Source of the DNA: Pecten maximus | Lineage: Eukaryota | DNA length: 64,000 bases | Assembly: GCF_902652985.1 (NCBI RefSeq) | Contig: NC_047029.1 | Location: forward strand, 7,192,001-7,256,000 | Reading direction: 5' to 3' | Part shown: in pieces, positions 8,381 through 50,001 of the stretch | Numbering within the stretch: the first letter of the stretch is position 1 | Layout: each line of letters begins with the position of its first letter | Program-made: the position numbers and the translations under genes | Notes under the pieces: model-generated | The model's input: the letters and a program-made list of their open reading frames with translations, nothing else | The model's database searches: none | What the model was told of the DNA's origin: nothing

Positions 8381-8411
8381 TCACAAGTTAAAAGGACGAT
8401 AAACCCGGAAC
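8381..8411 (-). CDS. Putative terminal coding exon of the minus-strand micro-exon gene ((W)FRVYRPFNL*)
   Basis: Acceptor ccattgcag|G; phase 2 matches the 12329-12391 exon; TGA at 8381-8383. Confidence 0.5.
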
Positions 8412-8472
8412 CTGCAATGGTACTGTAAAAGGAGCGAGTTGATGTGTCTTGAACTTAGTGTTTGATAATATC

Positions 8473-8925
8473 TCGCTTTGACTTGGACTTAGTGCCACAT
8501 ATGGTCCCTACCACTCAGCTGGCGGAGTGGGTGGTTTTGAGATGGACTTAGTTCCACATATGGTCCCTACCACTCAGCTGGCGGAGTGGGTCGCTTTGAC
8601 TTGGACTTAGTGCCACATATGGTCCCTACCACTCAGCTGGCGGAGTGGGTGGTTTTGAGATGGACTTAGTGCCACATATGGTCCCTACCACTCAGCTGAC
8701 GATTTTGGTCGGTGTGACTTGTATGTAGTGTCAAATGCCCTCCCTGCTACTCAGCTGACAGAGTTAGTCAGCGTTGCTTGTACATTAAGTCAAATAGGTC
8801 TTTGTCACTCAGCTAAACGAGCAGGTGGGTGTGGATTGTACACAGTGTTCAACAGGTTACACAGGTGACAGAGTGGATCGGCGTTGCTTGTGCTTGATGT
8901 TAAAACGATATCTGTCACTCAGCTA
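8473..8925. repeat. 59-bp tandem repeat, 4 good copies alternating two variants, then degenerate copies
   Basis: TGGACTTAGTGCCACATATGGTCCCTACCACTCAGCTGGCGGAGTGGG core; alternating TCGCTTTGACT / TGGTTTTGAGA heads. Confidence 0.85.
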
Positions 8926-9292
8926 ACGTATTGGGTTGGCGTGGGCGTGGGTTGGCGTGAGTTGGCGTGGGTTGGCGTGGCTTGTATATTAGATAAAATA
9001 GCCCCTTATAAAGTTCATCGAGGATTATGATTATGTTATTTTGTCTCTTTTTATTCCGAAATGTAGCGTCTATTGGTGGCGTCGAAGGTACGTAAAAACG
9101 CAATACGATTAATTAACAGTCTGTAACAGATGAAATTTCCTTGTCTGTGTTTGGCAAAAAAAAGCCTACATATCTTTGTAAGATGAAAAACATATTCAAA
9201 ACATGACTTTCATACAAAGAGCCGGAAAACACAGGCTAATTTCTTATATCCCTGTTCTAAGCTCGACAAGAAATCATGTCAACAAGGACCTA

Positions 9293-9465
9293 CCAGTTAC
9301 TTAGGTAGGACATTAGGTCAGCAACGGACTTATCAATCGCCTAGTTAGGACATTTGGTCAGAAAAGGATTTGACAATCGCCTAGTTAGGACATTAGCTTA
9401 GCAAAGGACTTATCAAAGTGTAGTTAGGACATTAGGCCAGCTAAGGACATCAATCGCCTAGTTAT
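9293..9465. repeat. Degenerate ~40-bp tandem repeat, ~4 copies
   Basis: CTAGTTAGGACATTAGGTCAGCAAAGGACTTATCAATCGC recurring. Confidence 0.75.
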
Positions 9466-10807
9466 CTATCTGATGATAGCATCGCTGCATTATTTACCTT
9501 AACTGAGTGACCTACATATATTTGATTTTCACAATTTCACACATTCCCAAGACAAGCTGTAGATACATATCATAGCCACGATTTCCTTACGATGTGAGTT
9601 TTAAAACAAAATCATCCAGGAAGGAGTTTCCCTGTATTCTAGTTTGTACTTGAGCAAACTAATCATCACGTGCAGTTAAGGTTATAACAAGCTCCATAAA
9701 GTTAACGTTATAACAAGTTCTATAAATTTAACGTTATAACCAGCTCCATTAAGTTAAGTTTATACATTGTAACAAGTCTTATAAATTTAATGTTATAACA
9801 AACTCCATATAGATATACATTTGTACATATATTATCATGGTCTTTGTTCTCACGGTATCGTGTAGGGGTCACCGAGAGGTTCTCTAAAACTCAAACAGAT
9901 GTGCTTTGTCATAATATATAAAACTTTAAAATATTTCGGTCAGCATTTTTTTTAACAGCCTGATAGCATGATGAATTCGAATGAGACCGAGAAAATCTCT
10001 TTCCACGTTCTTTCAATTATTAACGCATTGTTAAATCCTAATTCAAATTAATCGAGCATTCTAAATCGGTAATCAGACAATTTAGACTATAATTCCATAC
10101 TACACATATTTGAGGTATGGGTGATTTCTATACTAAATGCCAGTGTTTCCGTGTCTATGTGATCACTGGACTGTAGACAATAGACAATGCTACCAACACC
10201 ATCCTCGTTAACATTACTTATCATGGCCCATTTCAAGGCTGTATACAATTTCACAAAATGTCAAAGGTGTAATTCAGTTTTCGCGTGAGTAAGTAGTATT
10301 TTGTGCTCTATTTTATTCATCCCATTGACGAGAAATATGTCTGCCTTTGTTCCGTTTGTCTTTGTCTCCGAGATGTTTGGAATATCTTTTCAATACATAC
10401 CACGCATTACATGTTTCTATACTCCCGTCGTAAAACATGCATCCATTTAGACGTCACGGTATACAAGAGAAAGATATACGGCAGATATATACCACCATCT
10501 GTCACGACTACTACATACATTCATGTACGTAGCTGTGTGTATAGGGGGAAAATAATACTTCCGGTTAAACAATTTTCTGTTTGTAACTCACGTATGTGAT
10601 TATTTTTTGTTTTACTTTTAAACATCGGTGGTCTTCAAAAAGGGAAACAAATGAAATGGAGGGACAAGGTTAAAAGAAAAGTATACATTAATATACTTCA
10701 ACGTCAAAAACAAACATTAAACTACCACAGCAACAGCATAAAATAACACGGATTTATTCTACAATCATATGTTATACCAGTGTCATTTTGAATACAATAT
10801 GATCAAC

Positions 10808-47049: not shown

Positions 47050-47796
47050 AGACCTGCACTGAAGGTCAGCACAGCCACAATTCAGTCCATCAGTCAGACC
47101 CAAACTGGAGGTCAAACAGGCAAATATCAGTCCATTAGTCAGGCATGAACTTAAGGTCAACACAGTCAAATATCAGTCCGCTATCATACCTGAACTGGAG
47201 GTCAGAACAGTCAATTATCAGTTCATTAGTCAGACCTGAACTTGAGGTCAACAAAGTCAAATATCAGTCCATTAGTCAGACCTAAAATTCAAGTGAACAC
47301 AGTCAAATATCAGTTCATTAGTCAGACCTGAACTGGAGGTCAACACAATCAAATATCAGTTCATTAGTCAGACCTGAACTGGAGGTCAACACAATCAAAT
47401 ATCAGTTCATTAGTCAGACCTTAACTGGAGGTCAACACAGTCAAATATCAGTTCATTAGTCAGACCTGAACTGGAGGTCAACAAAGTCAAATATCAGTCC
47501 ATTAGTCAGACCTTAATTGGAGGTCAGCAGTCAAATATCAGTCCGTTAGCAGAGATGAACTTGAGGCCAACACAGTCAAATATCAGTTCATTAACCAGAC
47601 CTTAATTGAAAGTCAATAAAGTCAAATGTCACTCCGTTATTAGACCTGAACTTAGGGCCACCACACTCAAATATCAGTCTATTAGTCAGACCTGAATTAG
47701 CGGTCAACACAGTCAAATATCATTCCGCTGTCAGCCCTGAACTTGAGGTCAACACATTCAAATATCAGTCCGCTATCAGACCTGAACTTGAGGCCA
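47050..47796. repeat. Diverged 46-bp minisatellite (AGTCAGACCTGAACTGGAGGTCAACACAGTCAAATATCAGTTCATT), ~16 copies
   Basis: Tandem periodicity; homogeneous in the centre, diverged at the edges. Confidence 0.9.
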
Positions 47797-48807
47797 CCTT
47801 AGTAAGATACCAATGTCCTGTACGATCACATAGATTTATTGTACTCCGGTTCCCTTCCCAAAATAAGACCCCTCGCGCATTTCATCCGGGCAAACAAGAG
47901 TGATTCATAATTAGTTGATTTAACTTTAATTGTTGTAAAATAAATAAAACTCATCGGATACAATTTGAAACATATTGGGTCGAATGTTTTTTTTAGTATA
48001 TACGGTATATTATTTAAAGTTAACTCGTTTTCCAACCAATTTCACCCAGACACCGAGGACCTTGGGATTTGATGAGTAGGCGTGACCGTCTAATTGGATG
48101 CCTATACGTTATTATTTTATAATTGTATGTGATGTCACGTTAATCATTCACTTTCAAATTGGACAGATGATCCGCACGCGCGACCTTGCATTATTAGTGG
48201 GTATATAATGGCAAGATAGGATGATTAAATGGTTCTATCTTCACCCAAGAAGACTATGACTGATTGGGGTACCGCGTGATATGAACATTTGTCTCATGAC
48301 ATATTAATACAACACTAAAGAGTATTTATGATTGAATTCGGGTCGTCGGGGGGCACATACATGTACATTGTATACAGATTGCGACAGCTACTTAAACCCC
48401 CAAAACAATGTGATAACGATAAAGTATTTCAAATACAATCCTGTCAGAACACTACAGTTTCACTGTTCGTCCCTTTCTCAGAAACATGGATCATTAACTA
48501 TAATTAACTTTTTTCACGTGCTTTGACCTCAGGGACGCATGGTACATTGTTCCTGATGACCTCTAATTTGACCTATGGGTTATATGTATATCTCCGCACA
48601 CGTTCGTGTCGGTAAATGAACCTAATCGTACTATAAGTTGCCAACGTAATGATTTCACCTCCATTGTATAGAAGGACATTGCCAGGGTGTACGGTGTAAA
48701 AATAAGCTGTGAGCGATGTGTCTAAATTACATGTGTTACGAGACTGATGACAACAGGGGATCATCGACAGTAGGGATTCAGACGCCGACCCCGTGGGAAT
48801 ATTTTAC

Positions 48808-48833
48808 CTTGGGGGAGTGGTGTGCTCAGAGCT
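48808..48833 (-). other. Candidate 26-nt exon (likely 5'UTR)
   Basis: cgcttcacag|AGCT...CCAAG|gtaaaa. Confidence 0.3.
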
Positions 48834-49971
48834 CTGTGAAGCGTTGTAGACGTTTATTTACGATAAATTTTAAAGTTACCCGTACTTAAAGTTGTGATGT
48901 CTTCTTAGCGGAGCCACTTAGATCTTTATTAAAACGAGAAGTACACATTCGCATAAATAATGTTTTAACCTTGGGCACTTTAAGTCTGGTTAGATTTTCA
49001 CAAGTTCACACTACCTGATATATATGTCTTACAATACCTGAGGCTGTTTATCTCTCAGTGTGTGCATTTTACCTATTGTGAATGAAGTCAATGGGATTTT
49101 TTTTAGAAAGTTTAACTTTGTATAATCTCGGCAGAGATATAAAGAGGAATGCTAACCGCTTATGCCCGCTTATCTTATATGAGCGGTGCGGTCTAACTAC
49201 ACGCGTAGGGGTACGATTTGACATCATAATTACGAAATAACCCTTTGGTATTCGAAGATGTTGCGATGCCAATTAAAATTCAATTCTATTCAATATTTAT
49301 CAGCACTATTATAATTATGAATGTAATTTTATGACTTATCAAGAACACGGAAATAAGAAGATAATGTACACTTAATACTTAATCAAAACGGACACAGGCC
49401 TGGCTTCCTCAGTTTTAATGACCGGTCTGAAGTAGGATCTTTGTATTTGACAAAAAAATCTGTGTGATCACAGTTTGGTTAAAGATTTCCGCAGCCTGAA
49501 GATAGAACTTCGTTTGTATCTAAACGAGTATTGGTTAATTGGGTAGCGGGAAAAGAAATGCAATTCATCAAGTGAATTGCAGATTGAACACAGTCTTTGC
49601 ATTCCTTGAATATTTATCAAAATTGTTGACTGGAGAAAGCCAACCAAAACACATCACATTGCCAACATGTACAAATCAAGAGATGTCCTAGAACGAATAT
49701 CCATACCCTGTCTGACGACCATCTGTCAGAAATTGTCCGTCCGTCGTCCAGAGCTACGTCATCGCAGCTAGAGATGTCGGTCCGTACACCGTCAACAATG
49801 CGTCATAGATCCCTGTATATTCCTAACAGATTGCTTGTTCACAACTTCTCCTTGTTTGCTTTAAAAACAAACCAGAACCATTACTCTGGTATTAATTTTT
49901 TTTCTTTATTTAGAGCGTCTTGGCCTTATGCAGGGACGTTAACCCCAGACAAGAGAACATTATCCACTTAC

Positions 49972-50001
49972 CAAGGACTACGATCCAGTATTTTCCTCTT
50001 T
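49972..50001 (-). other. Candidate 30-nt exon
   Basis: acttttcag|AAAG...CCTTG|gtaagt, near-consensus sites. Confidence 0.4.

What the first reader, a model, noticed from the sequence alone, without database searches (positions are those of the whole stretch)
8381..50001. Hidden micro-exon gene encoding a possible 31-aa microprotein with PKA-type sites
Seen: exons with good splice sites at 32916-32931, 26597-26617, 18979-19014, 12329-12391 and 8381-8411 join into TTDSRDRFPRRSFGDFGFLRRKTMRRMSAFISFYDPLQQFVLALWFRVYRPFNL*. The three internal exons are all phase 2-2 and multiples of 3 (21, 36, 63 nt), and the other two frames are closed in the 36-nt exon. Further short candidate exons (34665, 40798, 48808, 49972) introduce stops and look like 5'UTR. 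If so, the first ATG is split across an intron (AAAAACAAT|G, strong Kozak context), giving MRRMSAFISFYDPLQQFVLALWFRVYRPFNL (31 aa). Inference: an RRxS/T kinase motif followed by a hydrophobic tail recalls the architecture of phospholamban-type regulators, but I recognise no homolog. The ORF track cannot show this gene.
Basis: partly seen in the sequence, partly recalled or inferred. Interest (0 to 1): 0.7.

Follow-up and report, generated by a model that had tools for sequence, protein, structure and literature searches.

The report
Scallop membrane microprotein hidden in micro-exons
Five tiny single-copy stretches spread over 25 kb of a great-scallop chromosome likely splice into an unannotated gene for a small protein predicted to end in one membrane helix behind cAMP-kinase target motifs, a layout like the heart's calcium-pump regulator phospholamban, but the splicing and the partner are untested.

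Summary
Its last exon most likely starts 11 nt earlier: the acceptor at 8422 scores 4.3 against 1.2 for 8411. With 8422 the product ends in a 19-residue predicted membrane helix; with 8411 it has none. 8422 is the only one of 29 downstream acceptors that gives such a helix. Three frame-preserving exons each carry an Arg-Arg pair (0-18 of 1000 simulations, motif chosen after the fact). Against this: splice-site strength alone is no better than chance (about 120 of 1000), the 63-nt exon's acceptor is weak, two of the proposed 5' exons are dispersed repeats, the start codon is unresolved, and no homologue exists in databases that do hold this scallop's neighbouring gene. Best reading (0.45): an unannotated tail-anchored microprotein of 36 to about 60+ residues, switched by PKA. 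It works like phospholamban in layout but fails the regulin sequence marks; SERCA as partner about 0.2. The junctions remain untested.

The parts
32916..32931 (-). 16-nt candidate exon (phase 1-2, shifts frame; coding or 5' UTR unclear)
   Evidence: acceptor 5.7, donor 4.9; single copy
26597..26617 (-). 21-nt candidate exon, phase 2-2, ends in an Arg-Arg pair
   Evidence: top-scoring 10-80 nt candidate of the window, 12.0; single copy
18979..19014 (-). 36-nt candidate exon, open only in phase 2-2, carries an RRxT motif, ends in the AT of the split ATG
   Evidence: single copy
12636..12677 (-).
   Evidence: acceptor weak (-0.6); single copy
12329..12391 (-). 63-nt candidate exon, phase 2-2: RRxS motif, polar linker, first 5 residues of the predicted helix; a stronger internal acceptor at 12348 would make it 20 nt
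   Evidence: single copy
8377..8422 (-). coding part of the last exon from the corrected acceptor 8422 to the TAG at 8379-8377; completes the predicted 19-residue membrane helix.
   Evidence: acceptor 4.3 against 1.2; only helix-forming acceptor of 29; single copy
8229..8234 (-). first poly(A)-type hexamer, 143 nt after the stop
   Evidence: such hexamers occur 2.2 times per kb here, so weak
   Evidence: 11 matches at 76-84% in the genome
   Evidence: 11 matches, 10 of them elsewhere at 68-83%
54481..54535 (+). first coding exon of the divergent neighbour, Ig-domain gene LOC117343136; likely upstream limit of the minus-strand unit

Best explanation
Five single-copy minus-strand micro-exons likely splice into an unannotated scallop gene whose product is predicted to be a tail-anchored microprotein: a basic cytosolic arm with RRxS/T motifs, then one membrane helix at the very end, and it would act as a PKA-switched brake on an ER/SR ion pump, most likely SERCA. 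Shown: the sequence, open frame, phases, single copy and hydrophobicity. Inferred: splicing 26597-18979-12329-8422; insertion in the ER membrane with the N-terminus in the cytosol (one acidic residue after the helix, no signal peptide; from established tail-anchor biology, recalled); phosphorylation of the Ser 12 residues before the helix; release of the pump on phosphorylation. Length is 36 residues from the split ATG, or at least 54-59 if the upstream exons are translated, which the Arg-Arg motifs suggest; that start was not located. The confidence is for the gene and the tail-anchored product; SERCA as partner is about 0.2 overall.
For: Acceptor 8422 outscores 8411 (4.3 against 1.2) and turns the C-terminus into a 19-residue helix, Kyte-Doolittle 2.31, Hessa sum -1.3; the 5 other exon combinations tried give none. 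Joined to the 63-nt exon, 13 of 1339 acceptors in 264 kb reach that hydropathy and 7 of 1339 that Hessa sum, 8422 included. 8422 is the only one of 29 downstream acceptors in the window to do so and is fifth of 29 by score. An unbiased list of frame-preserving exons open in phase 2-2 returns the 21-, 36- and 63-nt exons plus two others. Three carry Arg-Arg; simulations reach this in 8, 4 and 0 of 1000 at score cut-offs 2, 3 and 4, and two such exons in 18 of 1000 at cut-off 5. Two RRxS/T motifs in 40 residues occur in 0 of 1866 local open-frame windows. All five exons are single copy, while both 5' candidates tested are repeats. Layout matches phospholamban and another-regulin as described in PMC8396278 (passages) and PMC13368986 (passages).
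Against: Splice strength alone is not above chance: 118 and 120 of 1000 after masking the repeat; the earlier 5-13 of 200 leaned on that repeat; 39 against 39 candidates by strand with another matrix. The 63-nt exon's acceptor (-0.7) is below all 6 real acceptors measured and has a stronger internal rival (12348) that destroys the helix. Arg-Arg was chosen after seeing the peptide; for any dibasic pair the figures are 18-121 of 1000. Short hydrophobic frames after acceptors are common: 32 in 264 kb. With a free choice among 29 acceptors a helix would arise by chance roughly one time in five (my estimate). No protein shares three 5-residue words with the 63-nt exon frame at 22-72 or 73-2000 residues, although the same database holds the neighbour from this species and from two other scallops. 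No Pfam or PDB match. The matrices and hydrophobicity scales are recalled and calibrated on six introns only.
Confidence: 0.45

Rival explanations
1. No gene: the segments are chance splice-like motifs in unique DNA, picked and ordered after the fact.
Against: Arg-Arg in three in-phase symmetric exons (0-18 of 1000) and the helix from the adjacent stronger acceptor are separate features; 21 against 6 short candidates on minus against plus with the invertebrate matrix.
Confidence: 0.25
2. A real spliced but non-coding RNA, for example running divergently from the Ig-gene promoter near 54.4 kb, using some of these exons, perhaps with the 12348 acceptor; the open frame is incidental.
For: Divergent promoter of LOC117343136 inside the window; repeat-derived candidate exons are typical of such RNAs (established knowledge); 12348 outscores 12391; no upstream in-frame ATG was found outside the repeat-derived exon.
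Against: Does not explain the in-frame Arg-Arg motifs or the helix. No Rfam RNA in the window or in 130 kb of flanks that would make it a host gene.
Confidence: 0.15
3. One reading: a 31-residue soluble or membrane-surface peptide from the split ATG and acceptor 8411.
For: Frame open, AG present, A at -3 of the ATG; without my penalty for a nearby upstream AG, 8411 scores 3.2.
Against: A stronger AG lies 11 nt upstream; the product has no membrane helix (Hessa +9.5), so the phospholamban comparison would not hold.
Confidence: 0.07
4. A real small membrane-protein gene of another build: the 42-nt exon is a duplicated alternative last exon (a second, shorter tail) or a cassette that adds a second hydrophobic segment, and the partner is a channel or another pump.
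For: The 42-nt segment matches the last exon at 21 of 46 nt from the acceptor and stops at the same codon; 2 of 3129 other acceptors do both.
Against: Weak acceptor (-0.6), marginal hydropathy (1.52 over 15 residues), protein similarity score only 4; no partner copy of the 63-nt exon upstream of it.
Confidence: 0.08

Closest known systems
Phospholamban (Pfam PF04272; 52 residues)
   Same: Tail-anchored layout with a cytosolic arm, linker and C-terminal helix (PMC8396278, passages); PKA site ahead of the helix (Ser16; PMC13368986, passages). Here an RRxS serine lies 12 residues before the predicted helix.
   Different: No Pfam or PDB match from the exon frames that could be tested. No Leu-x-x-Asn pair in register (Leu31/Asn34). 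The helix is less aliphatic, with a Gly-Ser-Gly. The coding frame is cut into 21-63 nt exons.
Another-regulin (ALN, 66 residues) and DWORF (34-35 residues)
   Same: The long form (54-59+ residues) matches ALN's unstructured arm plus terminal helix (PMC8396278, passages). The short form (36) matches DWORF in size, in a proline before the helix and in having the length set at a splice junction (PMC13368986, passages and section 2.4).
   Different: No sequence match tested or found; proline and glycines are in another register than DWORF's Pro15 and Gly21/Gly25.
Sarcolambans of arthropods (33-45 residues)
   Same: Invertebrate small-ORF membrane peptides hidden in transcripts taken for non-coding; similar length (bioRxiv 10.1101/2020.07.19.211243, first quarter of text and passages).
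   Different: The WLL motif kept in the three sarcolambans studied there is absent. No paper in the library holds both 'sarcolamban' and 'mollusk'; none of the 20 listed of 29 holds 'sarcolamban' together with 'mollusc' or 'scallop'.
Unnamed RRxS-rich tail-anchored family noted earlier in this scan (e1-9136001, another animal genome; AI note, unchecked)
   Same: Small, membrane-anchored, cytosolic part rich in PKA motifs, no named family.
   Different: Sequences not shown to me; a look-up by sequence with the 63-nt exon frame found 0 look-alikes on 6 words, so kinship is unknown.

Membership tests
SERCA regulins (PLN, SLN, sarcolamban, ALN, DWORF) | Small protein with a single C-terminal membrane helix | tested here: met
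Rests on predicted splicing.
SERCA regulins (PLN, SLN, sarcolamban, ALN, DWORF) | Leu31/Asn34-type pair (Leu-x-x-Asn, or Leu-x-x-Pro in DWORF) at the start of the helix (PMC13368986 section 2.4) | tested here: not met
   By eye: counted from the C-terminus the Asn34 position is Val, the nearest polar residue (Gln) is two away and has Pro three before it; a Phe-x-x-Pro lies five residues further up. No alignment program was used.
Sarcolambans / sarcolipin | [quoted passage not shown] | tested here: not met
   No Trp in the predicted helix; motif as described in bioRxiv 2020.07.19.211243.
Phospholamban | Match to Pfam PF04272 | tested here: inconclusive
   No family hit for the single-exon frames. 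The genome-wide search gave 13 matches, none over the cut-off and none on this contig. The joined peptide could not be submitted.
Phospholamban | PKA consensus site in the cytosolic arm | tested here: met
   RRxS in the 63-nt exon and RRxT in the 36-nt exon; motif only, phosphorylation untested; consensus recalled.
SERCA regulins (PLN, SLN, sarcolamban, ALN, DWORF) | Binds SERCA and changes its calcium affinity or rate; SR/ER location; muscle expression | not testable with these tools
   Needs bench work; the spliced peptide cannot be handed to the folding tools.
FXYD / phospholemman | FXYD motif before the helix on the outer side, phospho-sites after the helix (recalled) | tested here: not met
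   The kinase motifs lie before the helix and one residue follows it.

The most novel reading that the evidence does not exclude
The first molluscan phospholamban analogue: an independently evolved, PKA-switched SERCA regulator whose cytosolic arm is built from frame-preserving micro-exons that each add one kinase site, so that splicing sets the number of phospho-switches, with a duplicated alternative tail exon. It would give cAMP-driven relaxation of bivalve muscle a calcium-uptake arm.
Probability: 0.15. Interest if true: 0.8.

Novelty: new variant of a known kind. Interest (0 to 1): 0.45.

Why it matters
SERCA regulators are described from vertebrates and arthropods; my searches found none from molluscs. 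A scallop microprotein with this layout would make the question directly testable with one RT-PCR, one alignment to other scallops and one ATPase assay. It would also show a class of gene that both ORF scans and homology-based annotation miss: under 70 codons, cut into 16-63 nt exons over 25 kb. If the junctions are absent, it is a useful warning that good-looking micro-exon chains arise by chance and from small repeats in this genome.

Tried and rejected
RNA: no RNA holder listed for 7400-8411 among 23 runs added by species label. Contigs of 4 of the 23 runs laid on 12272-13040 gave no cover. Contigs of 4 of the 23 (one repeated, so 7 different runs in all) laid on 18110-21180 gave no cover of the 36-nt exon; they covered repeat-like pieces and, in one run, two 151-nt intronic contigs of depth about 3. 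The tissues are unknown and contigs show presence only, so none of this is used for or against. Homologues: none near or longer. The one phmmer hit among 1.84 billion (P0003, E 4.5e-5) is a 915-residue repeat protein whose score is summed over weak 40% matches: rejected. Metagenomes: 600 pattern matches, 0 confirmed. Atlas unavailable. No paralogue in the genome for the 63-nt or last exon frames or in 264 kb around. Rfam: 0 in the window and in 13 of the 20 flanking stretches scanned. A 69-residue form starting just upstream of 49972 and the idea that this exon came from the mL64 gene on contig C4 were both dropped: the segment is a dispersed repeat, and mL64 has its own start 4 kb downstream. 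A donor at 8385 making the last exon internal scores -0.7: dropped. Motifs for RBFOX, QKI, MEF2, CArG and CRE near the exons were not tested against a formal null and are not used. The 40798 and 48808 candidates were not searched genome-wide (cap reached); they are not repeated within 264 kb. No fold or complex was predicted. Supplements were not read; the sarcolamban and regulin alignments are figures that I could not see, so the regulin comparison rests on residue numbers given in the text.
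Full report
Setting. The window is G000:C15:7192001-7256000 of a 918-Mb genome. An exon of the neighbouring gene matches LOC117343136 of Pecten maximus at 100%, with relatives in Ylistrum (70%) and Argopecten (64%). That Ig-domain gene has its first coding exon inside the window, on the plus strand at 54481-54535. 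The finding therefore lies in a stretch of about 45 kb pointing away from it. About 30% of the window is tandem repeat (44,486 of 64,000 bases unmasked), and all long open frames come from those arrays.

The observation. The five segments are on the minus strand with the right dinucleotides and translate as stated; phases and closed frames are as described. Each is single copy. I scored splice sites with a matrix of recalled invertebrate frequencies and checked it on the neighbour's six real introns: acceptors 1.85-7.8, donors 2.7-7.2. Two acceptors do not: 12391 (-0.7) and 8411 (1.2). Each has a stronger neighbour, 12348 (2.6) and 8422 (4.3).

The correction. I translated the six combinations of the two acceptors of the fourth exon with three acceptors of the last. 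Only 12391 with 8422 gives a membrane-grade segment: 19 residues, five from the 63-nt exon and fourteen from the last exon, mean hydropathy 2.31, Hessa sum -1.3, followed by one Glu and the stop. Joined to the 63-nt exon, 13 of 1339 acceptors in 264 kb reach that hydropathy and 7 of 1339 that Hessa sum, 8422 included. In the window 8422 is the only one of 29 downstream acceptors to do so and ranks fifth by score; out to 10 kb beyond the window it is 1 of 53. Short hydrophobic frames behind acceptors are common here, 32 in 264 kb.

Chance tests on the chain. With a vertebrate-type matrix both strands gave 39 candidates; with the invertebrate one, 21 on minus and 6 on plus, against 19-24 per strand in 65-70 kb of flanks. 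A first simulation gave 5-13 of 200, but it counted the 49972 segment, later shown to be a repeat. With that masked, and slightly looser site cut-offs, 118 and 120 of 1000 simulations reach the observed strength. So splice strength alone proves nothing. Coding features do better. Listing all frame-preserving exons open in phase 2-2 returns five: 30, 21, 36, 42 and 63 nt. Three carry Arg-Arg, which simulations reach in 8, 4 and 0 of 1000 at cut-offs 2, 3 and 4; at cut-off 5 the 63-nt exon drops out and two are reached in 18 of 1000. For any dibasic pair the figures are 39, 18, 45 and 121 of 1000. Two RRxS/T motifs in 40 residues occur in 0 of 1866 local windows. The motif was chosen after seeing the peptide, so these numbers overstate the case.

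The 5' end. The 49972-50001 candidate sits in a 70-nt element with inverted ends, found 11 times at 76-84% identity; its donor is the element's end. The 34665 candidate also overlaps a repeat. The other two were not searched genome-wide. The start codon is unresolved. The split ATG gives 36 residues and a second Met gives 33. But then the Arg-Arg motifs of the 21- and 36-nt exons would be untranslated, and they are the best sign that those exons code. I therefore favour a longer arm, at least 54-59 residues in all, whose first exon I did not find. The 16-nt exon shifts frame and could belong to one isoform only.

A further candidate. A 42-nt segment at 12636-12677 is open in the same phase, is hydrophobic, matches the last exon at 21 of 46 nt from its acceptor and, read through its donor, stops at the same codon; 2 of 3129 other acceptors do both. 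Its acceptor is weak. It may be a duplicated alternative last exon, or nothing.

Relatives. None. The 63-nt exon frame has no candidate at 22-72 or 73-2000 residues in a database that holds the neighbour from three scallops. This argues against a long annotated protein, less against one under 70 residues, which annotation usually skips (established knowledge). The one phmmer hit is a repeat artefact. Pfam, PDB, Rfam, metagenomes and the own genome gave nothing. Only single exons with their intron flanks could be searched, which limits sensitivity. Codon-level conservation could not be tested, as no related genome is held. The attempts with RNA runs are listed under Tried and rejected.

How it would work. 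Shown: open frame, phases, motifs, hydropathy. Inferred: splicing; insertion of the terminal helix in the ER with the arm in the cytosol; PKA phosphorylation of the serine 12 residues before the helix, and of the upstream threonine in the long form; control of a membrane partner by that charge switch. Phospholamban does this for SERCA: a tail-anchored peptide with cytosolic helix, linker and membrane helix (PMC8396278, passages), released by phosphorylation of Ser16 and Thr17 (PMC13368986, passages). I commit to SERCA as the likeliest partner, at about 0.2 overall; other pumps or channels fit the anatomy as well.

Membership. The layout and the kinase motif are met. The Leu31/Asn34 pair (PMC13368986 section 2.4) and the sarcolamban WLL motif (bioRxiv 10.1101/2020.07.19.211243, first of four parts and passages) are not. 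It is not filed as a regulin; it works like one at best. Eight literature searches (listings only, apart from the three papers named) showed no molluscan peptide of this kind. PMC5696797 was not held, and I saw nothing of it. An earlier AI note, e1-9136001, describes an unnamed RRxS-rich tail-anchored family in another animal genome; I could not compare sequences.

Verdict. Interest 0.45: cheap to decide and notable if true, but resting on sequence statistics from one genome.

Noticed in passing
window 54481-54535 (+), and 78031-88133 in window numbering beyond the window (L003, L004): First coding exon of Ig-domain gene LOC117343136 (376 aa, hydrophobic N- and C-termini) lies in the window, 23.5 kb from exon 2; a CRE-type palindrome sits at 54380. 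CpG is depleted over its body (0.34-0.66) but not over the finding's region (mostly 0.8-1.1).
   Followed up: partly
window 49967-50038; G000:C4:32134687-32134754 and at least 9 other places: About 70-nt dispersed element with short inverted ends whose 3' end forms a good splice donor and whose interior holds an acceptor: a ready-made pseudo-micro-exon.
   Followed up: partly
window 12636-12677 (-): 42-nt candidate exon resembling the last exon in start and distance to stop.
   Followed up: partly
window 7573 (-): Very strong acceptor (7.3) inside the presumed 3' UTR, followed at once by a poly(A)-type hexamer at 7569; could be an alternative last exon.
   Followed up: partly
G000:C15:7128267-7131949 (L018, L017): Long open frames on both strands that look like a DNA transposon (THAP-like, transposase-like and zinc-finger/exonuclease-like pieces by eye; not scanned).
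   Followed up: no
G000:C4:32112500-32127000 (L040, L039) and 32138720-32140800 (L033, L034): A multi-exon gene with death- and TIR-like domains by eye, followed by the mL64/GADD45GIP1 gene (PF10147).
   Followed up: partly
window+105600 to +114000 in window numbering (L006, L007): Further Ig-like exon at about 113600 related to LOC117343136 (23%, E 2e-8), probably a tandem paralogue.
   Followed up: no
window 50500-51200: A CRE palindrome at 50567 and three MEF2-like sites (50759, 50838, 51126) in 600 nt; possible promoter or enhancer of the minus-strand unit, but AT-rich and not tested against a null.
   Followed up: no
window 16586-16670: Short dispersed repeat that looks tRNA-derived by eye, beside a 49-nt tandem array; no Rfam hit.
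   Followed up: no
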